Source: an uncultured virus (IMG/VR IMGVR_UViG_3300044701_002726) (lineage: Duplodnaviria; Heunggongvirae; Uroviricota; Caudoviricetes). Taken from it: 64,000 nt of DNA. The notes under the pieces were generated by a model that had not been told where the DNA came from, did no database searches, and was given only the letters and a program-made list of their open reading frames with translations. Positions within the stretch are counted from its first letter, which is position 1. Each line of letters starts with the position of its first letter. Location of the stretch: the IMG/VR virus record IMGVR_UViG_3300044701_002726, one strand, 5' to 3'. Of the stretch, positions 25,818 to 62,762 are shown in pieces. A program made the translations under genes and the position numbers.

Positions 25818-26218
25818 TATTTCTTAAGTAGTTTCATTAACTCTGCTGTAGAACCAACAAATAAAGCTTTCTCAACATTTACATCTCCAGCTTTGTTTTG
25901 TGATGTTACCATCAAATCTTTTTTGCGTTTCTGTATCTCTAACAAGTCTTTATTTAGATCAGACATATTCTTAATCAAAGTTGCCATAACTTCATATGCA
26001 CGAGGATGTTGACTGTCACGGGCAACAACTGCCAATTCATCTACAGCCTTACTTCCTTTTTGAAGTAACTCTTTAATATTTTGTCTTGCGATCTCTGTGT
26101 CTGACTCTATAGGATTAGAAGACGCAATTGGAACAATTTCTTTTTGTGGTTCTTGAACTTCTAAAGGAATAGGTTCTACATCAAATATTTCAGAAAGTTT
26201 TTCATTTATTTTTTTCAT
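25817..26218 (-). CDS. gp16: terminase small subunit
   Basis: HPRAYEV, ALFVGSTAEL. Confidence 0.9.
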   Translation of the reverse strand: MKKINEKLSEIFDVEPIPLEVQEPQKEIVPIASSNPIESDTEIARQNIKELLQKGSKAVDELAVVARDSQHPRAYEVMATLIKNMSDLNKDLLEIQKRKKDLMVTSQNKAGDVNVEKALFVGSTAELMKLLKK

Positions 26219-27351
26219 ACTGATCCATAATTAGCAATAGCAGTTTTAAAATCTTCAAAAGTTGATGTATTAGCAACTAATGACTTTAAATCTGTTAGTG
26301 ATATTGAAACTTCAGCATTTGCAACAATTAAGTACCAAATGTTTTCTTCTATTTTAATCAATCGAGCAAAACTTCTGGCAGGTATAAACCATGATGCTCT
26401 TGCTTCTCCAAATCCAACACCATAAATTTGAGCTTCAACTTCTTCGATATGCTGAACTCTTTCAACTGTTATTCCAATACTTTCAGTTATAATTCCAACT
26501 TCTGAACCTATTGGAAAATTTAAGTCACTGTCTCTTGGTACTGATATTGTCATATCATAACCACGAAGAATTCTCTTAGCATCAATTGATCTTATTGTAT
26601 AGTTATCATTATCAAGCCAAACAACAGGCCAATCTAATGGAATTGATGCAGTGATTTGATTTGTGCCATCTTCAAAAACAACACCAACTTCAGTAGAGGT
26701 ATCAATTAACTCTCTTGTGTAGGCAAAAGAACCATTTGCACCTCCAACACCACCTAAATCCCATTGTGTAAATTTTACTTTATAATACTTATCATTTGTA
26801 ATATCGTGCATAACCAATTCTGCACCAACAATGTTACTTCCTACTTTTTTTCTTAATGCTTCTGTAAAAGTTCTATAATGTCTAAATTTAACATTGTCGA
26901 GATTGTTCCAACCAGACCAATTCCATTCTGTATTTGCTGGACTTACATCTCTATTAAAACTAACTTCTACGGCAGAGTTATAAATTCCTTGTCCGTTGTT
27001 TGCTCTTGCAAGAGAAAGACCAGTATCTATAACATCAGAAATATCTGTATTTGCTGCTCGTGTAAAAGTAATTACATTAGATGTAGGTTCATGTCTTTCC
27101 GTAAGTTCTATATGTGTGTATATTACTGTATTTGCAGCTGCTTGAGCTGTTGTATATGCTAAATTTGCTTTTTCTCGAGCTACAGGATCTACTTGCGTAT
27201 CTGAAACAATACTATTGGCATAATTATAAGATGCTTGTGCAATATTATAAACTTCAGTAAAATTATCATTTACTTTAATAAATGCTGTACGCAGAGGATC
27301 ACCTGTACCAGTATTTGGCCCTGTGCCTATGTTAATTGTTTGTTTTGCCAT
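26215..27351 (-). CDS. virion fibre/appendage protein with gp9/gp10-like N-terminal domain
   Basis: MAKQTINIGTGPNTGTGDPLRTAFIKVNDNFTEVY resembles the T4 gp10 N-terminus. Confidence 0.65.
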   Translation of the reverse strand: MAKQTINIGTGPNTGTGDPLRTAFIKVNDNFTEVYNIAQASYNYANSIVSDTQVDPVAREKANLAYTTAQAAANTVIYTHIELTERHEPTSNVITFTRAANTDISDVIDTGLSLARANNGQGIYNSAVEVSFNRDVSPANTEWNWSGWNNLDNVKFRHYRTFTEALRKKVGSNIVGAELVMHDITNDKYYKVKFTQWDLGGVGGANGSFAYTRELIDTSTEVGVVFEDGTNQITASIPLDWPVVWLDNDNYTIRSIDAKRILRGYDMTISVPRDSDLNFPIGSEVGIITESIGITVERVQHIEEVEAQIYGVGFGEARASWFIPARSFARLIKIEENIWYLIVANAEVSISLTDLKSLVANTSTFEDFKTAIANYGSV

Positions 27352-30141: not shown

Positions 30142-33100
30142 TTAAGCCTGACTCTCTGACCAACTAATTCTACCACCAACTATAAATTGATTTGATGCTG
30201 TCACTGTTGATGGATCTTCAATTAGTCGTACTACTACAGTTAAAATATCTGGACCGTCCGGAAAGACATTATCTCCACCAAGTATGCTATTTCCTAATGT
30301 AACAATATCACCTAAATCTGCCACAGTATTAAGTTGAACACGACCTGTAGTTCCTGTAGAACCTGAAGCTCTAAAAGTGTATACGGTTGTTCCACCAGTT
30401 ATTCTATCACTAGTATCATGATAAATTAACTGACTTAAACTAGGATTAGTAACTCTTTTCCAAGCATAATTGTTCAATTGCCCATTTAATTTTAATGTTA
30501 CCTCGCAAGTATGTGTGGATTGTATACCAACACTATTTAAAATTAATTGCATCCTGTTTATAATTTCTCTTTCTCCTAAAAGACCTGGTGTACCATTATC
30601 GACACTAGGAGATAATCTAATACTAATCAGAGGTTGTTCATATACTACAGAAGAAACTGCTGAACTTAAAGTAACAGTATAATTACTACCAACTGTTGTT
30701 GTAGCTGTTGGAGAATTAGAAATTAACAATAAATTTCTTGTTGCTTGAGATGATGTATTAAATGGATTAGTATGCCTTGTTGTGACACCAGGCAAATAAA
30801 CTTGATATGGAGTTATCTGTGTTGATATTGGAACTCTAGTTAATGTACCAGCTGGCACATTAGAACCTGTTATTGACACACCAGGAGGAATACTATTAAA
30901 TGAGGCTGATGGAGTAACTACAGATAATGCTCTTCCTGCTTCTCTATATTGATTACCAACTAACACATAAAATGTTGATGTAGAATCAATTATACAATTG
31001 GCTATAACTGATGCTGAACCGGTAATTGATATTTGATTTGATGTCGCACTAAAAATATATGCTTTATCATCATCAAAACGACCATCCATAATTACTGATG
31101 TACCCCAGTGAGCTAAAGCTGGTACATAAGATGGTTCTCCTATGTTTTCTATTTCGTATCTAGCAGGAATATTACCAGAACGCATGTATGCTTCAGTAAA
31201 TTTATTATTGTGTATAAATTCATGAACATATACTACTTTACCTCTTTGATCTTTAAAACCAAATCGAACTTTACCAGCACCGTACCAAGAGTAGTCCATA
31301 TATGCCATTTGAATTTTATGAATATCTAAATAAAATCCTGTTGGTCCTGTTCCATCACAAACATCTATATTCCATTGCGATTGAGGAATTTTAGTGTCTA
31401 CTGTTTTCGTTATAATTACATTTGTAGAATCTACCCCTCTATAACTTGGTAAAATATACAATAATGTATTGCTTTCTATCTTAGAAATTACATATGTTTG
31501 GCCTTTTATAACTATTTTTTCACCAACATCTAATTGACTTAAAAATTTAGTATTTGTTCCAACAACAACTGCATCTTTAAAAGAAACTGAAGCAGTTCCA
31601 CTAATTTGTTGTGTGCTACTTCTTCTAACGCAATTTAAAACAGAACCATTATATTCAAAAAATAAACCATTTTGATCATCAAACAAACCACAACGAGTTT
31701 CACTATTTGTCCATCCGTCAACATAAAATTCAATAATACCGTCAGCAACACTATTCACAGGAGTTCCAAGTAATGTTACGGTAAATGTATATTGATCTAC
31801 TATACTAGCAACTTCAAAAGTTCCGTTCCAATAATTTGTTCCACTAGATGTTGTAGCGCCAAAAATTGTTATATCTAATCCTTGTGTTAATCTATGTGGA
31901 TATCTTGTAACAATTGTAGCTGTAGTTCCAACTCTAGACATCGTATCAATTGTTGTTGTTGGACTAAAATTTATAGCAAATGATACTTGTATACCTTTAC
32001 CAGATTGGTAACGGAAATATTTACGAGTCTGTCTAACCATAGATGAATCTGGATTAGTACTTGGTATTAATTCTACACCACCATCATAAGGACGATGTAA
32101 AGCAAAACCATCTGATCGTAAAAGTAAACTTGTACTAACAGCATAATTGACATTTGTAAAATCTTCTGTTACTGCATTTAATAATTCTAATTCGTTGGTA
32201 CTATTAATTAGTTTTATTTGAGCTAATGTTGTAGAATAAGCTTCATTTTGAACTTGAACATATGTTAAATTAGTACCAGTACCTACAAAATCTATTCTGT
32301 TTGTATTATTTGTTGCATCTAATGGCGTTGCGTGTAAAGTAAATTGTTGAGTAGTTAAAACTCTAACATAATATATTTTATTCAATTCAATATTTTGTGG
32401 AACTACATCAGCAGAATTAAAATATAAACTGTTACCTGTTGTAAAATTATGTACTATTGGAGTTGTAAATGTATCATTAGCTGCATCATAACCTGAAATT
32501 GAACCAGTTAATTGTGATGGATTTTTGTATAATTTTATAGTATTTCCACTAGTAAAAACTGCTGGAAAATTGGTACCAACACCAACAATTTTTGTGGTAG
32601 TATTTGATATACTAACTGTTCCAGAACCTAAAACTTCTCCTGAAACTATTGAAGTGGTTAATCTATGAATCCCAGTACCATTAGATGTAATAGATACATT
32701 AATAGAACTTTCAGCATCTGCTAATGACGATGCTAATTTAAACCAATTGTTATTATATCTTATAACATAATATGTGGTGTCATTTGTTAATCCAGACATA
32801 ACAGTAGAAGTTGATGTATATGTTACTGGAGTGCCAGTTATAAGACCATGATTAGGTACAAAAAAAGCATTTCTATTTAAATCTAAAGATGATGTTATTG
32901 TAATTTTTCTTAATGGCAATTCATTATTGGCTGTTATTTTAAATGAAGTATCTGTTATTTTTTCTGTAAGTTTATAAACACCATCTGCTGCGTTATTACT
33001 TACAGCTTCTAAACTTTGTGTTCCTGAACCAGTTGAAGTTATATCTACTAAATTTGCTGTTCTAGCAAAACCAGTTCCTGTACCAAATTCAACATTCACT

Positions 33101-35326: not shown

Positions 35327-35866
35327 TTATAATGCAATTGCAAATGCTATGGCTTGTTCTAATGTAACACCACCAGTTCCAGAGTAACCTGAATACCCTG
35401 ATCTTCCAGAATAACCAGAATAACCTGATGTTCCAGATATGCCTGAATAGCCAGAATAACCTGATCTACCTGAATAACCTGAAATACCAGAATAACCTGA
35501 TGTACCTATACCAGAATAACCTGATGTACCTATACCTGAATAACCTGATATACCTGAGTAACCTGATGTACCTATACCAGAATAACCTGATACGCCTGAA
35601 CCAGAATATCCTGATGTACCTATACCTGAATAACCAGACCATCCTGATCTACCAGAATAACCAGATATACCAGAATGGCCAGAAATTCCTGAGTAACCTG
35701 ATGTACCTGATGTTCCAGATATGCCTGAATAACCAGAGTAACCTGATATACCTGATCCAGAGTAACCTGATATACCTGATCCAGAGTATCCTGATAGCCC
35801 TGAGTATCCAGAGTAACCAGATTCGCCAATAAAATTATTACTTAAAAAATTACTTAGTGTTATCAT
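35327..35866 (-). CDS. short Gly-X-Ser collagen-like fibre protein
   Basis: About 150 aa of SGYSG repeats; C-terminal AIAFAIAL. Confidence 0.75.
   Translation of the reverse strand: MITLSNFLSNNFIGESGYSGYSGLSGYSGSGISGYSGSGISGYSGYSGISGTSGTSGYSGISGHSGISGYSGRSGWSGYSGIGTSGYSGSGVSGYSGIGTSGYSGISGYSGIGTSGYSGIGTSGYSGISGYSGRSGYSGYSGISGTSGYSGYSGRSGYSGYSGTGGVTLEQAIAFAIAL
35375..35826 (-). repeat. (Gly-X-Ser)n coding repeat
   Basis: 9-nt periodic CCAGAATAA/CCTGATATA units on the + strand. Confidence 0.9.
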
Positions 35867-35905: not shown

Positions 35906-36355
35906 TTAAATCTCTAGTGTTGGCCATATAATATTAGTTGGGTCAGTTTGTTGAGTTATGTTTCTTAAATCTTCAATATACTCATCAATTATATGAATTT
36001 TTTCTTCACTATCAGCTGTTGGTACTCCTAATCTAGTTTGAGACTGATATCTAAATATTCTCCATTCAACTTCCTTTATCTTTTCATCTCTTTTGAATCT
36101 TATTGTTTGCCATTCTTTTTCAACTATTTCTGCTATTTCTTCTTCTGAAAAATCTACAATTTGCCAAGTTGTACCTGTCCATAAAAGTCTTTGTCTTTGA
36201 TTATGAACTGGAGGGTCTTCTACTAAAACATAACCAGCATCAGAAATTTCTTCTTCTGTGAAAGTGTCTTTTCCTGTACGAGTCAAACCATTAGACAATC
36301 TAATTCTGTCTGGTAAAGAACTTGGATAATTACCTATATGACTATATAAACTCAT
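35906..36355 (-). CDS. tail-fibre assembly chaperone-like protein
   Basis: W..IR.KRD....EW...Y..DLRNITQQTDP.NI.WP. Confidence 0.7.
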   Translation of the reverse strand: MSLYSHIGNYPSSLPDRIRLSNGLTRTGKDTFTEEEISDAGYVLVEDPPVHNQRQRLLWTGTTWQIVDFSEEEIAEIVEKEWQTIRFKRDEKIKEVEWRIFRYQSQTRLGVPTADSEEKIHIIDEYIEDLRNITQQTDPTNIIWPTLEI

Positions 36356-39308: not shown

Positions 39309-39671
39309 TTAACTCAATTCTTCATAAGAACAAACTGCTTCTAAATCACCAGTAGCACTAGCTGTAAGTCTAATACTATCATTTTCTTCTAGATAAATTG
39401 ATGTATCTTTAGAAATTAAAACTAAAGTAGAATCTGCTGGAACAGAAATCGTAAATGCTAATCTAAATGAAGTAGCACCATTTTTCAAAACATCAGCAGT
39501 AATATCTGCTGCAGCACTTCCATCAACATTAGCTATTGTAAGAGAATTAATTTTAAATACTTTATTTGATCCAGAAGAATTTGTAACAATTGCTTGAGCT
39601 GATGTAGTAACAGCTAAACCAACTGTTTTTCCTGTTATTGTTGCAACATTAAATATGTTTGGCGCTGCCAT
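39309..39671 (-). CDS. small virion adaptor protein (paralog A1)
   Basis: IANVDG..VPADSTLVLI..LEENDSI...S.EE. Confidence 0.6.
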   Translation of the reverse strand: MAAPNIFNVATITGKTVGLAVTTSAQAIVTNSSGSNKVFKINSLTIANVDGSAAADITADVLKNGATSFRLAFTISVPADSTLVLISKDTSIYLEENDSIRLTASATGDLEAVCSYEELS

Positions 39672-44410: not shown

Positions 44411-44418
44411 TATTTATA
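44411..44418 (-). promoter_or_regulatory. T4-type late promoter
   Basis: TATAAATA overlapping the upstream stop codon. Confidence 0.7.
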
Positions 44419-47169: not shown

Positions 47170-47505
47170 TTATCTAGTTACATTAGGCAATATTGTAGCT
47201 ATACCTTCAAATATTCTTGTTACCGTACCAGTACTTATTTCTTCAATTTCTACATCATAAACATATCTGCCTGCACGAATACTTGATGTGGTATTTGCAT
47301 CCAATTTTAATTCTATAGAACCGTTTGGAGCATCTATCATAGTTATTATGAAATTTACTGCATTTGTAGAATAATAAGATTTTCTTAATTGAGACCTAAC
47401 AGTATAACCATTTAAATTTTTTGGTAAACCAGATGCATCACTCACATCAACTTGTGTGACAAATGTAGAACCTGCTTCTATTTGTAGTTCAACAAAATCT
47501 GCCAA
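47170..47505 (-). CDS. conserved virion structural protein
   Basis: LQIEAGSTF..SQLRKSYYS..GRYVYDVEI..RIFEG..P.VTR; TTG start with AGGAG SD. Confidence 0.7.
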   Translation of the reverse strand: MADFVELQIEAGSTFVTQVDVSDASGLPKNLNGYTVRSQLRKSYYSTNAVNFIITMIDAPNGSIELKLDANTTSSIRAGRYVYDVEIEEISTGTVTRIFEGIATILPNVTR

Positions 47506-54420: not shown

Positions 54421-56028
54421 TTAAAATTGAAATACTAATTTGACTTCTTCTGCTTGTGCCTGCGATCTCTGAATCTTATTAAAATTTCTAGCATATAAAA
54501 TATGGCCAGAAAAAGGTTGTAAATCAGGATTTATAACTTCTAAAATTCTATATTGTCTACCAGAATCTAAGCCTCTCAACAATGCATTTTTGTCTGGAGT
54601 TTTATATACATTATTTAATCTAACTACATTTATTTCTTGAGAAACAACATAACCAACAAATGTTGGATCATTTATATTTCCTTGATACACCATCTCACCA
54701 ACTACAAAATTAGAGGTTCCTAACAATTCTAAATTTAAAGTCAAACTTACTGAATTTGGAGCTGTCAATTCTGTAACTCTGTCTATCTCACCATATTTAT
54801 GGGGATTTATAAGAATACCATATTGTCTAAAAAATATATCGTCTGGTATTTTACCATTTTCTGTAGAATCTATTTCTCCAACTCTACTTATGATCATAAT
54901 ATTTGTTGCACCAAGTTCCATAGCAGGGTTGTGACCATGGCCATATTTTGGTGGTAAAACTGCTCTTGCTTCAGCACCAGTACCAGAACCATAAATCGTA
55001 ACATTAGCTCTAGTGTAGTTTATTCCAGCATTTATAACATCTATTTTATTAATTTGATTTTGATTATTCAAACGAACAGAAGTAATTGTCTGAGTTCCAT
55101 CACCCTCAACAACAACTCTTGTTGATAAAGTAATTATATTACCCAATACACTTCCACCACCTGAACCTATTGTTGGTCTTGAAAGAAATAATTTTTTAGG
55201 TTGAGCAGAACTAATACTAGTTATATGTGTATCATTTGCAAAAATTCCATTGCCAGAAACCGCCATATTAACTGCTATAAAAAGACTAGTAGAAATATCT
55301 ATCTCGTCTGTGATATCTAACTCTTTAACTCCAGCAACAAATGGTGCAACATTTACTGTTGGATGATAATAATCTGACCCACCGTTTTCTACAACTATTT
55401 TGTTTAAAGTTCCATCTAATAAATTTTGAGTATTGTAATTATAATCTGTATAGTTTGTACTTGGTTGAATGTATGGAACTGGCATCCAATCTGGAGTCAA
55501 AAATTTATTTGAAAATTTTATGTTATACATGTACTTCCAAAGATAACCATTTTCATCACTAAATTCTGTCTGTATGAAACCAGAATTTTCTACATAGTTG
55601 CCAGTAGGTTCTACTTGAGATAAAGTAGAAACATTATTACAAAGACACTTGTAGACATTACCTTCAGATGTCATAGCATACATTGGATAAACAGTTTCAC
55701 CATCAATGATAGAGATACTTGTTAAATCTTCCAATGGGAGAGTGTCATCATATTGCTTATATCTAGTATTTGGTTGCCAAAGAACTCTTGGTATTACAAA
55801 TTCAATATCTTTTGGAGATACTCTTTTGGCCCCAACCATATTTTGCCAATTGTTTCTTTCATCTGGTGGTAAATCTACCATATCAACAGGTGTATCATTG
55901 TCTGGAAATTCTGTAGTCTTTCCAATGTACATATAACCGATAGATTTTAAAGCAGACTCTTTGAAAGAGTCCCTAAATGCTTTAGCAGTTAATACTTTTG
56001 TTTTATATGAAGTGTAACTTGTTGTCAT
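54421..56028 (-). CDS. gp8: baseplate wedge subunit
   Basis: VYKCLCNN, GYLWKYMY, WMPV, GHGHNP..ELGA, FRQYGIL.NP. Confidence 0.9.
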   Translation of the reverse strand: MTTSYTSYKTKVLTAKAFRDSFKESALKSIGYMYIGKTTEFPDNDTPVDMVDLPPDERNNWQNMVGAKRVSPKDIEFVIPRVLWQPNTRYKQYDDTLPLEDLTSISIIDGETVYPMYAMTSEGNVYKCLCNNVSTLSQVEPTGNYVENSGFIQTEFSDENGYLWKYMYNIKFSNKFLTPDWMPVPYIQPSTNYTDYNYNTQNLLDGTLNKIVVENGGSDYYHPTVNVAPFVAGVKELDITDEIDISTSLFIAVNMAVSGNGIFANDTHITSISSAQPKKLFLSRPTIGSGGGSVLGNIITLSTRVVVEGDGTQTITSVRLNNQNQINKIDVINAGINYTRANVTIYGSGTGAEARAVLPPKYGHGHNPAMELGATNIMIISRVGEIDSTENGKIPDDIFFRQYGILINPHKYGEIDRVTELTAPNSVSLTLNLELLGTSNFVVGEMVYQGNINDPTFVGYVVSQEINVVRLNNVYKTPDKNALLRGLDSGRQYRILEVINPDLQPFSGHILYARNFNKIQRSQAQAEEVKLVFQF

Positions 56029-58220
56029 TTTTTAATTTCTTTTTTCAGTTCTTTTATTGCCTGAACTAAGATTGGGATTAATTGTACATAAGATACTGAT
56101 TTTAAATCTCCAGATGTTTTAACAATCTCAGGTAAAACTTCTTCTATTTGTTGTGCTATAAAACCAAAAGATTTCTCGTCATTGGTTTTCCAATTAAAAC
56201 TAAATGGATTTATTTTATCTAAGACATCTAAAGCATTATCTATGTTATTGAAATTATATTTTAAACTCACATCAGATAAACTATTAAAATTTAAAGCATG
56301 AAACTCAGTGGCATGTAAATTACCATCATAATTTAGACGAGTTGAATTTGATGGAGCTGCTGTTCCATTGTATAAAGCACCATTTTGTTTTGTTGAACCA
56401 TTATATCTAAATGCACCAGATAATGTATCACTAGCAGTTCTTAGATCAACTGATGTGCCAGACCATCCTGATATGCCAGAATAACCGGATGGACCAGAAT
56501 ATCCAGAGAAACTTGAGTACCCAGAATATCCAGAATAACCAGAATCGCCTTGTATACCCGAACCAGAAAAACCAGACCATCCTGATCTACCAGAATAACC
56601 AGAAGTTCCAGAATAACCTGAAGGACCTGGTAAATTACCAGAGTAACCAGAAGTGCCGGAATATCCAGAATAACCAGAAAGACCTGATTGGCCAGACCAT
56701 CCTGATCTACCAGAATAACCAGAATAACCAGATATGCCAGAATAACCAGACCATCCAGAGTATCCTGATGGCCCAGGAGAAACAGCAGAGTAACCAGAAT
56801 ATCCTGAAGTGCCTGAATAACCAGATGTTCCTATTGTCGCAAAAGAAAAGCCATAAATTGTTCCAGACCAATCAGTACCTAAAGTTGGAGATTTTGCGAG
56901 CATATTAACTGTCAGCTCAAAATAACCTCCTTGATTGGTCATATTTGTTACTTCATATAATACATAATTTGAGTAAATTGCACTATATCTTTCATTAGAC
57001 TCTGTTGTTTCGTATACTATTATATTTGTTGTTTTACCAACATAATATTGTAATAAATTGTTATAGTCAAAAAGTGAAGAGTAATCTAAATTATCTAATT
57101 TAATGGTTGTTGTACCAACAAATCCTAAATTGTTTGTCGAAAAATCTGCACCGTCAATTGGTGTTCCACCATTAGTATCAAGTAAACTTGAGAGTATATA
57201 CATTCCACTTGGTACACCATTGATTGCAGAATAACCAGAATAACCCGATCTGCCTGAATACCCTGAAAGGCCAGAGTATCCAGATGCTCCAGGATTTTGT
57301 CCAGAATAACCAGAAATACCTGAGTAACCAGAATATCCTGAAGGGCCAGACCAACCAGAAACTCCAGAGAAACCAGATTTACCAGAATGGCCAGAATAAC
57401 CAGAAAGGCCAGAATAACCTGAGTAACCAGAAAGACCTGAATAACCAGATGTGCCAGGTAAATCTCCAGAATAACCAGAAATACCTGAGTAACCAGAATA
57501 ACCAGAATCTCCAGAATAGCCAGAGAAACCAGAATAACCCGAGATGCCAGAATAACCTGAGTAACCTGATACTCCAGAAACTCCAGCAAAGTCACCAAGT
57601 TCTATCCAATTTGATCCATCCCAAAAATATAATAGATTAGTATCTAGTACATAATATACATCACCAGTATTTGGTGTTTCTAATGCCAAATCTGTATAAA
57701 GATCAACTACACCAGCAAGTTCTAGTCCTGGTCCTGGATAACCAGAGTATCCTGAATAACCGGATATACCAGAACCAGAGTAACCAGAATAACCTGATTG
57801 ACCAGAGTAACCAGAATACCCAGAAAGTCCTGAGTATCCAGATTCTCCAGAAAACCCAGACTCACCAGAAAATCCAGAAAAACCAGAAGTACCAGATTCA
57901 CCAGACCATCCAGAAATTCCAGACCATCCAGAATAACCAGAAATGCCAGAAAAACCTGAATAACCTGATACACCTGAACCAGAGTAACCTGAATAACCAG
58001 ATATACCTGAATAACCAGAGTAACCTGATGGACCAGAGAATCCTGAGTAACCAGATAGTCCCCTAATTAATAACCATGCAGTACCATCTGAATACCACAA
58101 TTCTCCATCACTACCATAAACTAGTGAACCAATATATGGTTCTGGGTCTAGTTGTATAGGAACAGGAACTACTATTCCTTGGCCAAGTGTTTGCTCTTTT
58201 CCAGATATAAGCTTATTCAT
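56025..58220 (-). CDS. Gly-X-Ser collagen-like fibre with C-terminal peptidase S74 intramolecular chaperone
   Basis: Three SGYSG tracts; LSDVSLK..GFIAQQIEEVLPE..VSY..LIPILVQAIKEL. Confidence 0.85.
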   Translation of the reverse strand: MNKLISGKEQTLGQGIVVPVPIQLDPEPYIGSLVYGSDGELWYSDGTAWLLIRGLSGYSGFSGPSGYSGYSGISGYSGYSGSGVSGYSGFSGISGYSGWSGISGWSGESGTSGFSGFSGESGFSGESGYSGLSGYSGYSGQSGYSGYSGSGISGYSGYSGYPGPGLELAGVVDLYTDLALETPNTGDVYYVLDTNLLYFWDGSNWIELGDFAGVSGVSGYSGYSGISGYSGFSGYSGDSGYSGYSGISGYSGDLPGTSGYSGLSGYSGYSGLSGYSGHSGKSGFSGVSGWSGPSGYSGYSGISGYSGQNPGASGYSGLSGYSGRSGYSGYSAINGVPSGMYILSSLLDTNGGTPIDGADFSTNNLGFVGTTTIKLDNLDYSSLFDYNNLLQYYVGKTTNIIVYETTESNERYSAIYSNYVLYEVTNMTNQGGYFELTVNMLAKSPTLGTDWSGTIYGFSFATIGTSGYSGTSGYSGYSAVSPGPSGYSGWSGYSGISGYSGYSGRSGWSGQSGLSGYSGYSGTSGYSGNLPGPSGYSGTSGYSGRSGWSGFSGSGIQGDSGYSGYSGYSSFSGYSGPSGYSGISGWSGTSVDLRTASDTLSGAFRYNGSTKQNGALYNGTAAPSNSTRLNYDGNLHATEFHALNFNSLSDVSLKYNFNNIDNALDVLDKINPFSFNWKTNDEKSFGFIAQQIEEVLPEIVKTSGDLKSVSYVQLIPILVQAIKELKKEIKK
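56452..58062 (-). repeat. (Gly-X-Ser)n tracts
   Basis: Tracts at about 56452-56830, 57228-57590 and 57735-58062. Confidence 0.9.
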
Positions 58221-58223: not shown

Positions 58224-58694
58224 TTATGACTCCACTCCAATGTGTTCACTGGATAATTTCTCTTCAGCAGAAACCCAAACATCTATTGAATTTGATTCTT
58301 GTGCTTTAATTAAGATCATGTCTCCATTTGCAGAATCAGGATCTCTTTTAAGTAAACTTCTTCCTTGTAATGGAACTAAAGTTGTTTCACCTTTAGGAAT
58401 ATTCACTAAAGTAATTTCTATATTAGCACCCTCTTCGGATTGAAACATAACTTCTATACTGACTGTATTTGAAGCATTTTTATTTTTAGCATACATTGGT
58501 GTCAGTAAGAAAACTTCACCAGGTCTTATTGCTCTAGAATCATCTAACGGATCTCTGTTTGTTAAAGAATTAGATGGATCAGGAACAGAAAAATCTGGAG
58601 CTTCAATTAAAGTAGTAAATGTAGTTGGAACATTCTCATATATTGCATTTATTGGTTTACCTGTTGAAGGTGTACGGCATGTTATTCTAGGCAT
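58224..58694 (-). CDS. small virion adaptor protein (paralog A3)
   Basis: TT..TLIEAP..KN..IPKGETTLV..GDMI.IKA...VSAEE. Confidence 0.55.
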   Translation of the reverse strand: MPRITCRTPSTGKPINAIYENVPTTFTTLIEAPDFSVPDPSNSLTNRDPLDDSRAIRPGEVFLLTPMYAKNKNASNTVSIEVMFQSEEGANIEITLVNIPKGETTLVPLQGRSLLKRDPDSANGDMILIKAQESNSIDVWVSAEEKLSSEHIGVES

Positions 58695-58696: not shown

Positions 58697-60361
58697 TTAA
58701 AAACTCCTTGATATGACTGTTTTTGTTGCGATTCTATTTACCGCAGAAATAAATGGTGGTCCAGAAAGTTCACCAGTGTCAGCGTTAATTTCTAATCCCC
58801 CAACAAATATTGCAGAACCTTGATCGTCTTGACCACTTGCTATAACCAATCCTCTTTCCAATTCAAGTATACTATCTTGTATTTTAGCAGAGTTTTTAGC
58901 AGGAGGTATTTTGGTTAATGCTACACCTGCCATTACTCCACTCCAAGTATGTCCTATAGCAGTTATAGTAGAAGGTTCAAGTATTCTTTTTGGATTTTGT
59001 AATGTATTATTTATTGCAGCCACAGTATTGATAACTATAGTTTGTGCATTTCCGCTTATACCAGGCAAAGCATTTATTTCGTCTCTTAAATAATCGAAAG
59101 AATACTCAAATGCTGCTTGCTTATCTTGTGTAAAAACTGGTTTTGTGTTTGCATCCCAAGGTGTAGGATCACTTGGATCAGCTTCTGTTGTAAATAATGA
59201 TTTAGTAAAATCTAATATTGGTTGTTCATTCTTAGTCAATAAGACCCATCTAAGTGATTGTAAAAATGTTGCAGCATCTCTTCTCGTAAATTCTTCATCT
59301 TCGGCGTTCCAAGTTGCAGTATAACCTTCTGATACTAAAGAGGTCCACAGACTGTCAATTAAAGCTTCAGTATATTCATCGATTAGTTGATCTGCTTCTG
59401 CACTTTGTGCTTCAGTTATGGAAATTGTTCCTATTTTATATGGGTCAATTATTTGACGAACACCTTTGGCAACCATTGTGTAATCACCAAATTGTGTACT
59501 ACAGCTTGATAGAATTATTTGACCCCCACTAAGAGCATAAAAGTGTCTATGTGCCCACAAACAAACAGCATTAACAGCGTTAATTAAACCACCATTTTTT
59601 GCACAATATCCAATACCGTTATGTGAAACTGGAGTAGCACCCCATGTCATAATATTAGGAAATATACTATACGGTGAACATACTGAACCATCTGCTAATG
59701 CGACTCCAGCACCTCTACCAACATAAGGATTTGGTTCACCTTCTTCTGGGTCTCTGTCTAGAGGAGGAGCTACAAATGACCATGTTGGTGTAGTTCTAAC
59801 TGCTATCTTGTGTGCATATGGTACTCTTCGTATTACAGCACCAGGCCTAAATGAAACAGCAAATCCTTCAGTTGGATTATCCATATCATCTAAACGCCAA
59901 TCTTCAAATATTGGCCCCTCTAAGAAACAACCAGAACCTAAACGAAACACATTTCTTTCTTCAAATCCTGGTTTTGGACGAAAGACAGCACTTCTATGTG
60001 CAGCTCTTATAATCGTATCATCTGGAACATCTAAATGACCTTCAGTTAAATATACTCCAGCTCCTAATTCAATAAGGGTCAACATCTCTAATTCTTCTAC
60101 AACTTCTAAAGCCTTTTCAATCGTTTGAAATGCTCTGTCCCAAGATTTGCCGTCAAAATTATCATTACCATATGGTGAAACATAAAAAACATTTGGTGCT
60201 TGACCATACTCTCTTAAGTCTTTAAGAAAGTTTTCTAGTGTTATCTTTTTTGTTTTTAAGTAATCGTCTTCTTCTTCAAGATCAACCATCACTAAAAGAT
60301 TATTCGCAGTATTAGAACTTACTGTTTGTAGTTCTGGCAGTTGCGTAATTTTAATAGGCAT
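58697..60361 (-). CDS. pectin-lyase-like beta-helix fibre protein, paralog of 42965-44368
   Basis: YVSPYGNDNFDG, SGGQ..LSSCSTQFG, STITAIGHTW..V.AG; N-terminal KITQLP..TKKIT. Confidence 0.7.
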   Translation of the reverse strand: MPIKITQLPELQTVSSNTANNLLVMVDLEEEDDYLKTKKITLENFLKDLREYGQAPNVFYVSPYGNDNFDGKSWDRAFQTIEKALEVVEELEMLTLIELGAGVYLTEGHLDVPDDTIIRAAHRSAVFRPKPGFEERNVFRLGSGCFLEGPIFEDWRLDDMDNPTEGFAVSFRPGAVIRRVPYAHKIAVRTTPTWSFVAPPLDRDPEEGEPNPYVGRGAGVALADGSVCSPYSIFPNIMTWGATPVSHNGIGYCAKNGGLINAVNAVCLWAHRHFYALSGGQIILSSCSTQFGDYTMVAKGVRQIIDPYKIGTISITEAQSAEADQLIDEYTEALIDSLWTSLVSEGYTATWNAEDEEFTRRDAATFLQSLRWVLLTKNEQPILDFTKSLFTTEADPSDPTPWDANTKPVFTQDKQAAFEYSFDYLRDEINALPGISGNAQTIVINTVAAINNTLQNPKRILEPSTITAIGHTWSGVMAGVALTKIPPAKNSAKIQDSILELERGLVIASGQDDQGSAIFVGGLEINADTGELSGPPFISAVNRIATKTVISRSF

Positions 60362-62762
60362 TTGAATCCTCTGTTGATATTACATTAGGTTTGTTATTCT
60401 GAGTAGTCGCAGCCAATTCTCTCCAATACTCAGTGACAACACCTCTGTAGTATGGATATGGCACATAAATCGTCAAACCAACATTAGTTGATGTGAATTC
60501 AAAAGGTTCAGAAACAGTTATCGTTGTATTATTTATAATAGTATTTACAATTCTTATTTCAGAATTGACTACTATGTAAGTTCCTTCTCCAATTAATCCT
60601 AAAGTATTTGCCAAAACAAAATAAGTGTTGGTTCCAGTAATTGTGTAAGAACCAGCAGTAACATTAACAGAACCAGTTCCAGCAAGTTCTTTTGATACAT
60701 TTTCATATACTGATTCTGTAGTTAAAACTTCAACATTATCTTCAAAATTATATCTAGCATAGTTTATAAAACCAGTTGGATTTAAAAGATCATTTGCTAA
60801 TTTTCTGTAACGATTAAACTCTATTTTTGAAGTTATAACATAAGAAAAATCAATGTAGTAATTTTCTCCCTGTATTCGCATCTCATCTGATGACAAAAGG
60901 CCATCTGCACTTGTCCATTTTCCAGGTAAAGAAATATACGAAGAAGATATTGTCGATGTTAATTGAGCATCACCATTTCCACTAGTTGTCAAATCTGGAA
61001 GTGGACTTGATTCATAACCACTACCCTTATCAACTATTTCTATATTTAAAATTTTCCCAGCTATTCCGTCATCAACATCATACTGAAATTCAGCACCTTC
61101 GTGCATAAACAAATCAACTTCTAAGTTCGCACCATTTCCTTCACTATTAACTTTTATTGTTGGTAAAAAATCTTTTCTATAATTTATGCCACCATCTAAA
61201 ACTCTAACGCTTGTTATTACTCCATTTGAACTCACAGTATTAACTTCTGCTCTAGCTCCTCTGCCAAAATAATGATTTTTATGTACAAACAATATTTCAT
61301 CACCAACACTATAACCTTGTCCACCATTGTTTATTTTAATTGATGCTATGGAACCAATATCTATTATTGTCACATCATCGTTAGTTATTGGATTTGTATA
61401 TAGAACAATATCATCAATTACAAAAGTTGTATTTGGCGTATTTGGTATTTCACTTGTTAAAATAAAAATATCTAATAGAGGTCCTAATCCATCAAGAGTA
61501 AATAAATTTAATGATTCAGAAATAACAGAATTTAAATTTATAGTTTCCCCATCTTTAAATCCATAATCTGAAGAATCTATGTTGCTAGATGCATATTCAT
61601 CAATAACATCAATATTATAACGAATGAAATTTGGCCCACTTAAAGAAGTGTCATCTACACTACTAATTAATGCTTTAAATTGAGTTGTTGTGTAATTATT
61701 AGCATATATTTCTGATCCTGCTCTATAACCTTGACCAGTTTTATCAACCTTTACAAATAATTGTTCAATTTTTCCAGAACTAACTTCAGAAACAAAACCT
61801 GTTGCTTTCCTAGCACTTTTTCCTAAAAAATTAATAGAATCACCAACATTATAATTACTGCCAGGTCTAACTATCTGTATATCTTGAACTTCAGACAAAG
61901 ATTGAAAACTAAATGGTATAATTTTATCATCTACAATAACATTACAATCTATAATTTCTCCGTTTATAAAATTGCCAACTTTAGTTTTTTCATCTATAAA
62001 AAATTGAAAAAAATCTTCTCCAGCAATTCGCCGTCTTCCAACATTTTCTACTAAAGCTTTAGCACCAGATTTTTGTCCAACTAATTGTCTATTATTAAAA
62101 ATATCTAAATTAAAATTCGTTAAATATCTAACTTCTACTTTTTCATAAACAGATGGATCTTCAAGTAAAATAATTTTTTTTAATTCTTTTCTAAAAGCAT
62201 ATTGTTCAATCAAATTTCCGTCAAATCTAACTTCTACTTGATTTTCATTTAATTCATATGGTAAATATAAAACATCTGTAATTGAATTTGCAGTATATAC
62301 ACTAGTTACTACAGGTTCAGTTCTTAGTATATTTTCAATTATCCATTTGCCATCTGAAGCTCTAAGAATATTATTCCTTGGATACTCTACTTTTATTTCT
62401 TCTTGAAATAAAAGTCTAAACAATAATTCAAATGATTTAAGTGTTCCTTTTGATCTATACAAAGGTAAAACATTCTTCATAAAAAATGTTTTATCAAACA
62501 CACTCTCACTAGGAATTAATGAAGCAAATGTGTTAAAAAAGTTTTCTTCAAATCTCTCTAAAGATTCATCTAAATCAAAAGCATTTTTAATATTTTTTGC
62601 TTCTTCTATTAAATTATTTTTTTGACTAGTAGAATTAGAATAAAATTGTTCTTTCTCTAAAAACTCATAGTATGCTTCTAAAAATGAAATAAAAAGAGGA
62701 TATTCTTCTCTTACATATTCTGGTACTTGTCTATTGACTAATAATGATGTTCTTAAATCCAT
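60351..62762 (-). CDS. gp7: baseplate wedge initiator
   Basis: QVPEYVREEYPLF..FLEAYYEFL, YRSKGT..SF.LLFR, YYIDFSYVI, PTGF. Confidence 0.85.
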   Translation of the reverse strand: MDLRTSLLVNRQVPEYVREEYPLFISFLEAYYEFLEKEQFYSNSTSQKNNLIEEAKNIKNAFDLDESLERFEENFFNTFASLIPSESVFDKTFFMKNVLPLYRSKGTLKSFELLFRLLFQEEIKVEYPRNNILRASDGKWIIENILRTEPVVTSVYTANSITDVLYLPYELNENQVEVRFDGNLIEQYAFRKELKKIILLEDPSVYEKVEVRYLTNFNLDIFNNRQLVGQKSGAKALVENVGRRRIAGEDFFQFFIDEKTKVGNFINGEIIDCNVIVDDKIIPFSFQSLSEVQDIQIVRPGSNYNVGDSINFLGKSARKATGFVSEVSSGKIEQLFVKVDKTGQGYRAGSEIYANNYTTTQFKALISSVDDTSLSGPNFIRYNIDVIDEYASSNIDSSDYGFKDGETINLNSVISESLNLFTLDGLGPLLDIFILTSEIPNTPNTTFVIDDIVLYTNPITNDDVTIIDIGSIASIKINNGGQGYSVGDEILFVHKNHYFGRGARAEVNTVSSNGVITSVRVLDGGINYRKDFLPTIKVNSEGNGANLEVDLFMHEGAEFQYDVDDGIAGKILNIEIVDKGSGYESSPLPDLTTSGNGDAQLTSTISSSYISLPGKWTSADGLLSSDEMRIQGENYYIDFSYVITSKIEFNRYRKLANDLLNPTGFINYARYNFEDNVEVLTTESVYENVSKELAGTGSVNVTAGSYTITGTNTYFVLANTLGLIGEGTYIVVNSEIRIVNTIINNTTITVSEPFEFTSTNVGLTIYVPYPYYRGVVTEYWRELAATTQNNKPNVISTEDSNAY

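What the first reader, a model, noticed from the sequence alone, without database searches (positions are those of the whole stretch)
26215..62762. Apparent plug-and-socket grammar: C-terminal tags matched to the N-terminal domain of the next gene
Seen, three tag types. (a) GGSF (46959), GGTF (45540) and DGSSF (45007) ends sit next to genes starting M.NT.IQLKYS (45540, 44414). (b) Terminal mostly hydrophobic helices KAITMTLVFG, MTPYILALEG and IATKTVISRSF each precede a small adaptor (39309, 42629, 58224), and AIAFAIAL precedes the 30142 N-domain. (c) The two genes after adaptor 39309 share an N.G.IG......G.H N-terminus. Also, the gp7 tail precedes KITQLP..TKKIT and the gp15 tail precedes MAKQTINIG. 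Inference: gene order encodes a daisy-chained, branched fibre, which would make receptor-binding tips exchangeable modules.
Basis: inference. Interest (0 to 1): 0.8.

Follow-up and report, generated by a model that had tools for sequence, protein, structure and literature searches.

The report
Docking tags chain phage fibre proteins
In this marine T4-like phage and in hundreds of related phage contigs, fibre genes end in short conserved tags that are reliably followed by a gene with a matching start or by a small adaptor gene, so gene order may spell out how a multi-part tail fibre is clipped together.

Summary
Only the literal pattern in (c) fails.

Comparative data show most adjacencies are conserved rules.
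- All 65 of 65 genes with the "NT.IQLK.S…GELAIN..DGKLFY" N-domain (N1) that have an upstream ORF follow an ORF ending G[GS][STNA]F.
- In an independent locus set, all 8 ORFs with this ending precede such a gene. None of 578 other gene pairs shows it.
- The tag "GKAIAMAIVFG" precedes the 120-aa protein p120 in 47 of 62 loci and in four isolated phages.
- An AIAFAIAL-type ending precedes homologues of the 1721-aa protein in 63 of 79 loci.
- The tagged proteins are otherwise very diverse.

p197 has a T4 gp9-like fold. p120 is a jelly roll.

No conserved tag supports the gp7→KITQLP or gp15→MAKQTINIG pairs.

Physical docking is inferred, not shown. The closest known systems are the T4 long fibre and the branched receptor-binding complexes of Klebsiella phages. 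I rate this a new variant of a known kind.

The parts
47170..47505 (-). p111, a small protein that opens the cassette in many relatives
   Evidence: It matches phrog_1084 (E 1e-25) and phrog_3304 'L-shaped tail fiber protein assembly' (E 9e-20). Homologues stand just upstream of the tagged genes in L017, L023, L070, L171 and in Limnohabitans phage DC31.
46959..47159 (-). p66, a 66-aa protein ending ..IAGGSF (tag codons 46962-46973)
   Evidence: Relatives of 64-369 aa ending GG[STN]F precede N1' genes (24 'other→N1p' cases).
45540..46955 (-). p471, a fibre protein with the N1' start MANTLIQLKYS…AEPAYS and the end ..SGVPTFEMISGGTF (tag codons 45543-45554)
   Evidence: Relatives end SGVPTF.HL.GG[ST]F and are followed by the coiled-coil gene (22 'N1p→CC' cases plus 13 'N1p→other', most of the latter coiled-coil variants by eye).
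45007..45519 (-). p170, a coiled-coil protein with a variable linker and the terminal tag ..DGSSF (tag codons 45010-45024)
   Evidence: See for the sequence. In alignment A3 of 39 C-terminal ends only the last F is invariant. The coiled-coil end is followed by a 15-40 aa variable linker, then GG[ST]F.
44414..45007 (-). p197, with the N1 docking domain (about residues 1-48, 44864-45007) and a T4 gp9-like C-terminal beta-sandwich
   Evidence: The AF2 model has pLDDT 85. The best PDB fold match is T4 gp9, 1qex_A, E 2.2e-6. Homologue P0053 hits PF23618 T4_gp9_10_C at 26.4 bits against a cut-off of 25. All 65 of 65 N1 genes with an upstream ORF follow a GG[ST]F-type end.
42965..44368 (-). p467, a beta-helix fibre protein starting MANDKKFVVKNGL and ending ..MTPYILALEG (tag codons 42968-42997)
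   Evidence: It matches phrog_17885 tail fiber (E 5e-91) and PF07602. The same tag in L069 and L070 sits on proteins with a different N-domain and is again followed by the p110 subfamily.
42629..42961 (-). p110, a small protein of the p120 family (subfamily S2)
   Evidence: It matches phrog_1276 (E 1e-12) and is 30% identical to p120 (E 6e-5). S2 follows a ..LALE[GS] end in 3 of 3 cases.
39685..42636 (-). p983, a collagen-repeat fibre with the N-terminus MNNRIHSGK…RYEFISLGEAEPDLGLP and the tag ..GKAITMTLVFG (tag codons 39688-39717)
   Evidence: Pfam Collagen, E 8e-46. The N-terminal type recurs after S2 and p156-like small genes in L070, L169 and L171.
39309..39671 (-). p120, a 120-aa jelly-roll protein (subfamily S1) and the proposed connector
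   Evidence: It has 7410 homologues at E<=1e-3. The AF2 model has pLDDT 91. Foldseek finds jelly-roll folds: Ena subunit 7a02 (E 1e-4), nucleoplasmin core, Sf6/HS1 needle knob. In 47 of 62 loci the upstream ORF ends in an IVFG-type tag. The same arrangement holds in 4 isolated phages.
38124..39302 (-). p392, a DUF5122 beta-propeller protein and candidate tip, starting ..YNAGLIGPGK..RGIH
   Evidence: PF17164, E 2e-41. The N-terminal class '..GG.IG..' is found in 41 of 56 genes downstream of p120 homologues, against 62 of 340 other ORFs with the same loose pattern.
36371..38122 (-). p583, a second candidate tip, starting ..RNSGNIGAK..ASGVHD…IWP
   Evidence: Paired paralogues with this kind of start also follow p120 homologues in S-SKS1, L062 and L092.
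35906..36355 (-). p149, a tail-fibre assembly chaperone
   Evidence: PF16778 Phage_tail_APC, 27.4 bits against a cut-off of 26.6. It also matches PHROG tail fiber assembly families. Homologues close the p120 cassette in S-SKS1, HTVC033P and many loci.
35327..35866 (-). p179, a collagen-like G-Y-S repeat protein ending ..EQAIAFAIAL (tag codons 35330-35353)
   Evidence: Pfam Collagen, E 1e-12. See for the sequence.
30142..35307 (-). p1721, a large virion structural protein whose homologues follow AIAL-tagged genes
   Evidence: It matches phrog_5838 (E 1.5e-175). In 63 of 79 loci the upstream ORF ends in an AIAL-type tag, against 5 of 586 other ORFs. The narrower first pattern gave 23 of 79.
58697..60361 (-). 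p554, a baseplate-associated protein with an ITQLP-type N-terminus and the end ..NRIATKTVISRSF (codons 58700-58732)
   Evidence: It matches PHROG baseplate wedge families (E 4e-16). It is 53% identical from residue 34 on to the L169 538-aa protein, which carries an N1-type N-terminus instead.
58224..58694 (-). p156, a small protein after p554 and possibly a remote member of the p120 family
   Evidence: hhalign against A5 gives probability 31%, E 5e-4, over 83 columns in register. In 4 of 4 relatives it follows a p554 homologue ending PPF.SAV.RI.T…[SN]F.
56025..58220 (-). p731, a collagen fibre with a C-terminal intramolecular chaperone domain
   Evidence: Pfam Collagen (E 3e-39) and Peptidase_S74 (E 5e-14).
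26215..27351 (-). p378, with a T4 gp9/10-type N-terminus (MAKQTINIG…), lying between gp15 and gp16
   Evidence: PF07880 T4_gp9_10_N, 29 bits against a cut-off of 25. tblastn finds no relative in the phage collection.
60351..62762 (-). gp7-like baseplate wedge protein, with no conserved C-terminal tag
   Evidence: PF23786 (E 3e-9) and phrog_17744. The C-termini upstream of ITQLP genes elsewhere are unrelated to it.

Best explanation
The stretch is the host-recognition gene cluster of a T4-like marine myophage. It encodes many separate fibre pieces rather than a few long fibres.

Each piece has three parts:
- a conserved N-terminal docking element;
- a variable body (collagen repeats, beta-helix, beta-propeller or coiled coil);
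- often a short conserved tag at the very C-terminus.

I propose that the tag of one protein docks non-covalently either onto the N-terminal domain of the next gene's product or onto a small jelly-roll connector protein. The connector in turn holds the N-terminus of the following protein.

Proposed pairs:
- GG[ST]F with the N1, N1' or coiled-coil head;
- AIAL-type tags with the p1721 N-region;
- IVFG with p120;
- YILALEG with p110;
- ..SRSF with p156.

On this reading gene order mirrors assembly order, as in the T4 long fibre (genes 34-35-36-37-38). Pieces can be exchanged as long as tag and partner match.

Shown here: the conserved, body-independent adjacency; the folds of p197 and p120; and the strictly terminal position of the elements. 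Inferred: the physical contacts, the stoichiometry, where the chain is anchored, and whether it branches.
For: 1. Tag to N1.
- All 65 of 65 N1 genes with an upstream ORF follow an ORF ending [GSI][GSN][STNA]F. The count covers 81 sources and 1195 ORFs.
- In an independent set chosen by p120 (788 ORFs), all 8 ORFs ending G[GS][STNA][FY] precede an N-class gene. One of the 8 was recognised by eye. None of 578 other pairs shows the end.

2. The tag sits on unrelated bodies.
- The bodies fall into 9 BLAST-unlinked clusters, 64-1000 aa long.
- Some mini-proteins are little more than an N-domain plus a tag (64-89 aa).

3. Position and context of the tag.
- In the coiled-coil family the tag follows a variable 15-40 aa linker, and only the last F is invariant. 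That is the pattern of a tethered docking peptide.
- Codons vary: all four Gly codons occur, 14 codons occur at position -2, and GGAGG is present in only 20 of 133. Selection therefore acts on the protein.

4. N1 is strictly N-terminal.
- 37 of 62 longer homologues match the N1 pattern, all at residues 5-6 and none internally.
- In 119 of the best 150 of 17,189 library matches, profile position 1-2 aligns to protein residue 1-5.
- Of the 31 internal matches, 30 were checked. None has the N1 core internally; in P0411 it sits near the N-terminus, at residue 27.

5. Covalent counterpart. In long continuous fibre proteins a 'G.vL…G..W' unit plus a Gly-rich linker precedes an 'ANTQ[IV]QFN' unit. 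This holds for 29 of 192 units against 4 of 192 random windows. It is the same order as tag-end followed by the N1 start.

6. Natural swap. The p554 body carries an ITQLP-type start in the window and an N1-type start in L169-171. In L169 and L170 an unrelated upstream gene ending ..INGGTF appears with the N1 version.

7. Small proteins.
- 47 of 62 p120 loci have an upstream IVFG tag. Those upstream proteins are 66-1266 aa long, with 42 distinct N-terminal 6-mers among the 47.
- The same triad occurs in a podophage, a siphophage and a myophage isolate.
- Subfamily and tag never cross-pair: S2-LALEG 3 of 3, S3-LLMGA 3 of 3, S4-AIAL 7 of 7.
- A separate Tfa-like chaperone gene closes the cassette.

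8. AIAL-type tags precede p1721 homologues in 63 of 79 loci, against 5 of 586 other ORFs.

9. p197 has a T4 gp9-like fold. The title of PDB entry 1qex calls gp9 'the long tail fibers connector'.
Against: - No direct evidence of binding exists here: no structure of a complex, no virion proteomics, no genetics.
- GG[ST]F precedes at least three kinds of N-terminus (N1, N1' and the helical head of the coiled-coil protein). A single socket is therefore not defined.
- In the independent set, 9 of 16 N-class genes with an upstream ORF lack the exact tag. Two of them follow ..DYGSIA, two follow ..DGGTYTT, one follows ..NSGSF, and four follow no recognisable tag.
- In 15 of 62 p120 loci the upstream ORF ends differently.
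- In loci that lack a p1721 homologue, AIAL-tagged genes are followed by gp13 (22), a small S4 protein (9), something else (2) or nothing (2), out of 35. One tag type therefore has several successors.
- The loci are related and partly redundant, and they were picked by one partner of each pair. The Fisher p-value (2e-62) is not a probability of independent events.
- The patterns were written after looking at the data. The AIAL pattern was widened after a first count of 23 of 79.
- Genes were called by a crude longest-ORF rule.
- p156 belongs to the p120 family only weakly (probability 31%).
Confidence: 0.55

Rival explanations
1. This is conserved synteny only. The tags are intrinsic folding elements of trimeric fibres, acting as C-terminal registration or trimerisation nuclei (for example for collagen triple helices), or they are signals for a shared assembly factor. 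They travel with neighbouring genes because the cassette is inherited as a block, not because tag and next protein touch.
For: - Fibre trimers often need a C-terminal nucleus (established knowledge).
- Two hydrophobic tags end collagen-repeat proteins.
- The four-gene GG[ST]F cassette is syntenic in most loci.
- GG[ST]F precedes several kinds of N-terminus.
- AIAL tags are followed by different genes in different genomes.
Against: - In the coiled-coil family the tag is separated from the folded part by a variable 15-40 aa linker. That does not suit a folding nucleus.
- The tags occur on at least 9 unrelated bodies and on mini-proteins of 61-89 aa, and they still keep the same successor.
- The p554 N-domain swap goes together with the appearance of an upstream tagged gene.
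- Small-protein subfamilies never cross-pair with tags.
Confidence: 0.25
2. The small proteins p110, p120 and p156 are fibre-specific assembly chaperones or distal adhesins of the upstream fibre, like Tfa or gp38. They are not connectors to the following genes.
For: - They lie immediately downstream of a fibre gene and co-vary with its C-terminus. This is the classical arrangement of fibre and chaperone (established knowledge of Mu, P2, lambda and T4).
- The jelly-roll fold also resembles the distal knobs of Sf6 and HS1 needles.
- One GenBank record annotates the homologue as 'putative lectin'.
Against: - No match to any chaperone family. Pfam gives nothing and PHROG 1276 has unknown function.
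- A separate Tfa-like chaperone gene (PF16778) is present in the same cassette.
- The genes after the small protein share conserved N-terminal motifs specific to the small-protein subfamily: '..GG.IG..' after S1, 'L[LI]SG[KR]…AEP.LG' after S2 and p156-like. A pure chaperone or tip role does not explain this.
Confidence: 0.15
3. The conservation at gene junctions acts at the nucleotide level. It provides either Shine-Dalgarno and translational-coupling signals for the next gene or homologous boundary sequences that promote cassette recombination.
For: - In the window the GGSF codons read GGAGGC…TAA 6 bases before the next ATG.
- 66 of 128 tagged genes lie 12 nt or less from the next start.
- GGA is enriched at the second Gly codon, 73 of 120 against 22% of Gly codons overall.
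- Recombination at conserved motifs is known for T-even fibre genes (recalled, not looked up).
Against: - GGAGG is present in only 20 of 133 tags, and equally often when the next start is 13-100 nt away (9 of 59) as when it is close (11 of 66).
- All four Gly codons, 14 codons at position -2, and both Phe codons are used.
- The N-domains are only 40-60% identical at the protein level. That is too divergent for homologous recombination.
Confidence: 0.05

Closest known systems
T4 long tail fibre (genes 34-35-36-37-38) and its socket gp9
   Same: - Consecutive genes encode consecutive fibre segments that join end to end without covalent bonds.
- A small joint protein lies between shafts.
- A chaperone gene ends the cluster.
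- A gp9-like beta-sandwich protein is present: p197 against 1qex_A, E 2.2e-6.
- A gp9/10_N start is present on p378.
The T4 facts are established knowledge, recalled.
   Different: - No sequence similarity to gp34-37 was found.
- Here the joints are marked by 4-10 residue C-terminal tags shared by unrelated bodies, and several distinct tag/partner pairs coexist.
- The shafts are partly collagen-like.
- The connector is a 110-125 aa jelly roll.
- The cassettes also occur in podophage and siphophage genomes.
Branched receptor-binding complexes with a branching domain and a conserved docking peptide (Klebsiella phages KP32/K11/KP34; Ackermannviridae CBA120 TSP1-4)
   Same: - Modular receptor-binding proteins are held together by a short conserved peptide and a gp10-like domain, and tips are exchangeable.
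- Sources: PMC6872550, PMC13352976, PMC11414711, PMC8825819. For these I saw only the search listing and the start of each abstract.
   Different: - In those systems the peptide is at the N-terminus of the second protein and docks on an internal domain of the first.
- Here the conserved short peptide is the extreme C-terminus of the upstream protein. Its partner is the N-terminal domain of the next protein or a separate small protein.
- The sequence families differ, and the hosts are marine or freshwater bacteria.
Tail-fibre assembly chaperones and adhesins encoded downstream of fibre genes (Tfa of Mu/P2/lambda, gp38 of T-even phages)
   Same: A small gene directly follows the fibre gene and co-varies with the fibre C-terminus.
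   Different: - The p120 family matches no chaperone family and is predicted to be a jelly roll.
- A true Tfa-like gene (PF16778) is encoded separately.
- The small gene is also followed by genes with a matching N-terminal motif.
Host recognition cluster (hypervariable island between VrlC and the neck genes) of pelagimyophages and cyanomyophages
   Same: - The genomic position is the same. In the window it runs from VrlC at 48418-54411 to gp13 at 29153-30106.
- The content is the same: collagen repeats, tropism-determinant-like domains and fibre-like genes.
- Source: PMC7029224, passages read.
   Different: In the passages read, that paper describes the island as variable and says tail-fibre proteins could not be identified. 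No rule linking gene ends to the next gene appears in those passages.

Membership tests
T4 gp9 (long-tail-fibre connector), tested for p197 | C-terminal beta-sandwich of the gp9/gp10 type | tested here: met
   In the Foldseek PDB search the top hit is 1qex_A, E 2.2e-6, probability 1.00, TM 0.41. Homologue P0053 passes PF23618 at 26.4 bits against a cut-off of 25, but the window's own protein gives no PF23618 hit.
T4 gp9 (long-tail-fibre connector), tested for p197 | N-terminal coiled coil and middle domain as in gp9 | tested here: not met
   In the model, residues 1-48 are beta strands (the N1 domain) and residues 50-64 are disordered. The coiled coil is a separate upstream protein, p170.
T4 gp9 (long-tail-fibre connector), tested for p197 | Sits on the baseplate and holds the proximal fibre | not testable with these tools
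   This needs a virion structure.
T4-type segmented fibre (gene order equals assembly order) | A chaperone gene closes the fibre cluster | tested here: met
   p149 matches PF16778 at 27.4 bits against a cut-off of 26.6, and matches PHROG tail fiber assembly families.
T4-type segmented fibre (gene order equals assembly order) | Sequence homology to gp34, gp35, gp36 or gp37 | tested here: not met
   No such Pfam or PHROG assignment appears for any gene of the cluster, and no PDB sequence match.
T4-type segmented fibre (gene order equals assembly order) | Physical end-to-end contact of consecutive gene products | not testable with these tools
   Only adjacency statistics are available.
Branched receptor-binding complexes with a docking peptide | gp10-like branching domain in the first protein | tested here: inconclusive
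   A gp9/10-like domain is present in p197, and fold hits include the N-terminal regions of Acinetobacter tailspikes. Whether it branches is unknown.
Branched receptor-binding complexes with a docking peptide | Conserved N-terminal docking peptide on the secondary protein | tested here: inconclusive
   Conserved N-terminal motifs exist ('..GG.IG..', 'L[LI]SG[KR]', N1). They are unrelated in sequence to the Klebsiella peptides, which I did not compare directly.
Tail-fibre assembly chaperone, tested for p110, p120 and p156 | Membership of a known chaperone family | tested here: not met
   Pfam gives nothing at E<=10. PHROG 1276 has unknown function. The atlas clusters are unnamed.
Tail-fibre assembly chaperone, tested for p110, p120 and p156 | Gene directly downstream of the client fibre gene | tested here: met
   
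Collagen-like phage fibres (p983, p731, p179) | G-X-Y repeats recognised by Pfam Collagen | tested here: met
   PF01391 gives E 8e-46, 3e-39 and 1e-12 respectively.

The most novel reading that the evidence does not exclude
Marine and freshwater tailed phages of all three morphotypes share a combinatorial docking code. The code consists of at least five mutually exclusive pairs of short C-terminal tags and cognate N-terminal domains or jelly-roll connectors. Tiny 'converter' proteins made only of an N-domain plus a tag translate one code into another. Long, jointed and possibly branched fibres are then assembled from separately encoded, freely exchangeable pieces, and their architecture can be read directly from gene order.
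Probability: 0.35. Interest if true: 0.85.

Novelty: new variant of a known kind. Interest (0 to 1): 0.68.

Why it matters
The host-recognition islands of pelagimyophages and cyanomyophages are among the least understood parts of very abundant ocean viruses. The one paper I read on them says the tail-fibre proteins could not be identified (PMC7029224).

A set of simple terminal signatures that tells which gene products belong to one fibre, and in what order, would help in three ways:
- These islands could be annotated from sequence alone.
- The part that touches the host could be predicted.
- It would explain how tips are exchanged between unrelated phages.

It also yields clear, cheap experiments, namely tag deletions and pull-downs. 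It adds a C-terminal-tag variant to the known docking-peptide principle of branched receptor-binding complexes.

Tried and rejected
- **Complex prediction.** I submitted three copies of the N1 domain (95 aa, alignment A2) with three copies of the coiled-coil tail (60 aa, alignment A3). The scores were 0.34, 0.30 and 0.29 against a mark of 0.32. The verdict was 'no answer' and the controls were not run. This is no evidence either way.
- **Fused 'Rosetta stone' forms of tag plus N1.** No internal junction was found in 81 sources and none in 62 longer homologues. The only candidate is L043, where a coiled-coil protein runs directly into N1 without the tag.
- **Sequence search of the PDB.** Searches with A1, p471 and A5 found nothing significant.
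- **Megablast of 24 kb of the window against isolated phages.** No match.
- **tblastn of p378 against the phage collection.** No match.
- **hhalign of the p1721 N-terminal 200 aa against the p120 family.** Probability 0.2%, so p1721 does not start with a fused connector.
- **Shine-Dalgarno explanation of the GG codons.** Rejected on codon counts.
- **Word search of the paper library for the tag strings.** Only 7 unrelated papers.
- **Locus search with divergent alignments A4 and A5.** The narrower alignment A6 worked.
- **A failed script.** A first script to locate p1721 starts failed and was replaced.

Full report
**What the window is**

All genes of the region lie on the minus strand. PHROG and Pfam scans give the order of a T4-like structural module:
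- gp6 (62764-63840);
- a gp7-like wedge protein (60351-62762);
- three fibre-related genes;
- gp8 (54421-56028);
- VrlC/DUF4815 (48418-54411);
- about twenty small and fibre-like genes;
- gp13 (29153-30106), gp14, gp15 (27351-28247);
- an extra gene with a gp9/10-type N-terminus (26215-27351);
- gp16, gp17 and gp18.

GC content is 29-39%. No isolated phage is close at the DNA level. VrlC is 31-40% identical to proteins of cyanomyophages, pelagimyophages and rhizobiophages. A near-identical IMG/VR contig exists, with p471 100% and p156 96% identical.

The stretch between VrlC and the neck genes corresponds to the 'host recognition cluster' described for pelagimyophages and cyanomyophages. That paper states that tail-fibre proteins could not be identified (PMC7029224, passages read).

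**Check of the observation**

- The three G[GS][ST]F ends are the only 3 among 252 ORFs of 40 aa or more in the window, and they are consecutive.
- The literal pattern in (c) does not fit: the spacings are 8 and 11 residues, not 6. The two proteins are not significantly similar by BLAST (E 1.3).
- Whether the hydrophobic ends are helices was not tested.

**The GG[ST]F tag and the N1 domain**

p197 (44414-45007) has 153 relatives at E<=0.001 among 348 candidates. Its first ~50 residues also head proteins with quite different bodies.

A scan of IMG/VR with this alignment matched 602 stretches. Of these, 447 were confirmed and the best 80 were kept. I called ORFs with a simple longest-ORF rule in these 80 loci plus the window, 1195 ORFs in all. 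L001, a near-copy of the window, and L002, a partial hit, were left out.
- 67 genes carry the N1 pattern.
- 65 of them have an upstream ORF within 300 nt, and all 65 upstream ORFs end in [GSI][GSN][STNA]F.
- The other two lie at contig ends.

The other 77 ORFs with this end precede, with few exceptions, one of two gene types. One is a related start, N1' (MANT.IQLK.S..T..P..LN.AEPAYS). The other is the conserved head of a coiled-coil protein (MSVEFSNAYQEILL…).

The usual cassette has four genes:
1. a small or variable protein ending ..GGSF;
2. an N1' fibre ending ..SGVPTF.HL.GGTF;
3. a coiled-coil protein ending ..GG[ST]F;
4. an N1 protein.

This is exactly the window's p66, p471, p170 and p197.

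The tag is not tied to one family.
- Bodies fall into 9 BLAST-unlinked clusters, 64-1000 aa long. Two terminase false positives of the loose pattern were dropped first.
- They include 738-1000 aa fibres with an ITQLP-type start and 574-819 aa 'IRIKRR' fibres.
- They also include 64-78 aa mini-proteins made of an N1'-like start plus the tag.

In the coiled-coil family only the last F is invariant, and the tag follows a variable 15-40 aa linker.

Codon use shows selection on the protein. All four Gly codons are used, 14 different codons occur at position -2, and GGAGG is present in only 20 of 133 tags, independent of the distance to the next start. A bias to GGA at the second Gly (73 of 120, against 22% overall) remains unexplained.

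In an independent set of 80 loci chosen by p120 (788 ORFs), 8 ORFs end G[GS][STNA][FY]. All 8 precede an N-class gene; one of these was missed by my pattern and recognised by eye. None of 578 other pairs shows the end.

The converse is weaker. In that set, 9 of 16 N-class genes with an upstream ORF lack the exact tag:
- two follow ..DYGSIA;
- two follow ..DGGTYTT;
- one follows ..NSGSF;
- four follow nothing recognisable.

**N1 is strictly N-terminal**

- Of 62 longer homologues, 37 match the N1 pattern, all at residues 5-6.
- A profile search of 1.84 billion representatives found 17,189 proteins at E<=0.001.
- In 119 of the best 150, profile position 1-2 aligns to protein residue 1-5.
- The other 31 are long proteins that match only the second half of the profile, a generic fibre repeat.
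- I checked 30 of those 31. None has the N1 core internally; in P0411 it sits near the N-terminus, at residue 27.

In these long continuous proteins a 'G.vL…G..W' unit plus a Gly-rich linker precedes an 'ANTQ[IV]QFN' unit. This holds for 29 of 192 units, against 4 of 192 random windows. It is the same order as 'tag end' followed by 'M[AS]NT.IQLK' in the split genes.

I read this as a hint that the split proteins are collinear pieces of what elsewhere is one chain. This is inference. One locus, L043, has the coiled-coil protein fused in frame to N1 without the tag.

**A natural swap**

- p554 (58697-60361) is 53% identical from residue 34 onwards to a 538-aa protein in L169.
- The window protein starts with the ITQLP-type motif and follows gp7.
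- The L169, L170 and L171 proteins start with an N1-type motif.
- In L169 and L170 they follow an unrelated 720-aa protein ending ..INGGTF.

ITQLP genes elsewhere are the first fibre gene, and their upstream genes have no common end.

**Small proteins**

p120 (39309-39671) and p110 (42629-42961) are homologous (30% identity, E 6e-5; both match phrog_1276). The family is very large, with 7410 proteins at E<=0.001, and is unnamed.

The model (pLDDT 91) is a jelly roll. The best fold matches, at TM 0.4-0.6, are Ena spore-appendage subunits, the nucleoplasmin core, the Sf6 and HS1 needle knobs, and a lambda tip domain.

In 80 loci found with alignment A6, my pattern recognised the small gene in 64.
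- 62 of these have an upstream ORF, and 47 of those end in an IVFG-type tag (..GKAIAMAIVFG).
- Those upstream proteins are 66-1266 aa long, with 42 distinct N-terminal 6-mers among the 47.
- The other 15 mostly end ..LFEDAT or ..WWGN.

Four isolated phages show the same triad: Pelagibacter podophage HTVC033P, Synechococcus phages S-SKS1 and Bellamy, and freshwater phage DSL-LC04. In each, a fibre gene ending in an IVFG-type tag (in S-SKS1 the variant ..MMGMIF) is followed by p120, then by one or two genes starting '..GG.IG..'. In S-SKS1 and HTVC033P a Tfa-like chaperone gene follows.

A family HMM run over all ORFs of 161 sources gave 96 unique cases and no cross-pairing:
- S1 with IVFG: 48, plus about 9 with alternative starts;
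- S2 with ..LALE[GS]: 3 of 3;
- S3 with ..LLMGA: 3 of 3;
- S4 with AIAL-type: 7 of 7.

The numbers for S2-S4 are small and the loci are related.

Genes after S2 and after p156-like proteins start 'L[LI]SG[KR]…RY.F..L..AEP.LG.P'. This holds for window p983 and for proteins in L070, L169 and L171. p731 shares only the first ten residues.

p156 is at best a remote family member (hhalign probability 31%, E 5e-4). Its position after a p554 homologue ending PPF.SAV.RI.T…[SN]F holds in 4 of 4 relatives.

**AIAL-type tags**

In the first locus set, 35 genes end in this tag. They are followed by gp13 (22), an S4 small protein (9), something else (2) or nothing (2).

A scan with the first 300 residues of p1721 shows that where a p1721 homologue exists, the gene before it ends in an AIAL-type tag.
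- The narrow pattern gave 23 of 79.
- A pattern widened after inspection gave 63 of 79, against 5 of 586 other ORFs.
- The upstream proteins are 59-820 aa long, with 46 distinct N-terminal 5-mers among 56 unique sequences.
- Several of the 16 'negatives' look like further variants.

The p1721 N-terminus is not a fused p120-like domain.

A further pair not present in the window is ..DYGTL or ..DLGYLA followed by a 'QxRRG…TVDTD' start. It holds in 19 of 19 cases that have a downstream gene.

**Other points**

- p197's C-terminal domain has the fold of T4 gp9. The next gene, p467, has a 'F.VKNGL' start. I could not test this junction comparatively.
- p378 (26215-27351) has a gp9/10_N start. In T4 this domain sits in the baseplate (established knowledge), so 'gp15 tail → MAKQTINIG' is most likely plain adjacency. 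No relatives were found to test it.

**Interpretation**

The best-supported reading is a set of non-covalent joints marked by terminal elements, with gene order following assembly order. This is the T4 long-fibre principle combined with the docking-peptide principle of branched receptor-binding complexes (PMC6872550, PMC13352976, PMC11414711, PMC8825819; listing and abstract starts only).

Against it:
- there is no direct evidence of contact;
- one tag has several successors;
- the loci are related and were chosen by one partner;
- the patterns were written after seeing the data.

The rivals are synteny with folding nuclei, chaperones, and nucleotide-level signals. They explain parts of the data but not the body-independent, subfamily-specific pairing.

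**Novelty**

I found no description of these tags or of the p120 family's role in four literature searches. That does not prove absence, because subscription journals are not covered.

Noticed in passing
L043:9566-10978: A 470-aa ORF in which the coiled-coil protein runs in frame into the N1 domain, with the linker and the GG[ST]F tag missing. It is either a natural fusion of the two proposed partners or an assembly artefact.
   Followed up: partly
L083 (Limnohabitans phage DC31, PQ492658) 5350-8173; L094:1657-3994: The tag has a variant ending in Tyr (..ESGQY, ..DGGTY, ..DGGSY). It is followed by N1-type genes. In DC31 the cassette lies directly after the terminase, portal and head genes rather than in a tail module.
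   Followed up: partly
tag codons of 133 genes in L003-L082 and the window (e.g. window 46962-46973): The second Gly codon of the tag is GGA in 73 of 120 cases, against 22% of Gly codons overall. The first is GGC in 53 of 133, against 19%. This bias is not explained by a Shine-Dalgarno role.
   Followed up: partly
window 35327-35866: p179 is almost entirely G-Y-S / G-x-S collagen-like repeats. Its start (..LSNNFIGESG) resembles the '..GG.IG..' class that follows p120, so it could be a third protein docking on the same connector.
   Followed up: no
L062:10865-11425; L006:6121-6819 and 7768-8295: Genes that look like homing endonucleases by their N-terminal motifs are inserted between members of the fibre cassettes or between neck genes. 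I did not check them against Pfam.
   Followed up: no
L205-L213, L219, L222, L241-L242 (genes upstream of p1721 homologues); L004:2953-3222; L094:3794-3994: Mini-proteins of 61-89 aa consist only of a 'QxRRG…' or 'IKLKRG' N-domain followed by a hydrophobic tag (AIAL-type or ..ITLVFG). They look like adaptors that convert one docking type into another.
   Followed up: partly
window 47539-48415: Three small genes lie after VrlC. p80 matches phrog_473, a virion structural protein. p82 has a start (..NTFLDWLTTT) that resembles the start of a 667-aa protein at the same position in L070. p124 carries a 'GMLRFN…EGYNG..W' motif shared with PHROG 1325.
   Followed up: no
window 26215-27351: An extra 378-aa gene with a T4 gp9/10-type N-terminus lies between gp15 and gp16, outside the baseplate module. 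It has no relative in the isolated-phage collection at E<=1e-5.
   Followed up: partly
L001 and L168 (IMGVR_UViG_3300035670_000050): The closest public contig is 100% identical to the window in p471 but only 96% identical in p156. The two genomes are therefore very close but not the same.
   Followed up: no
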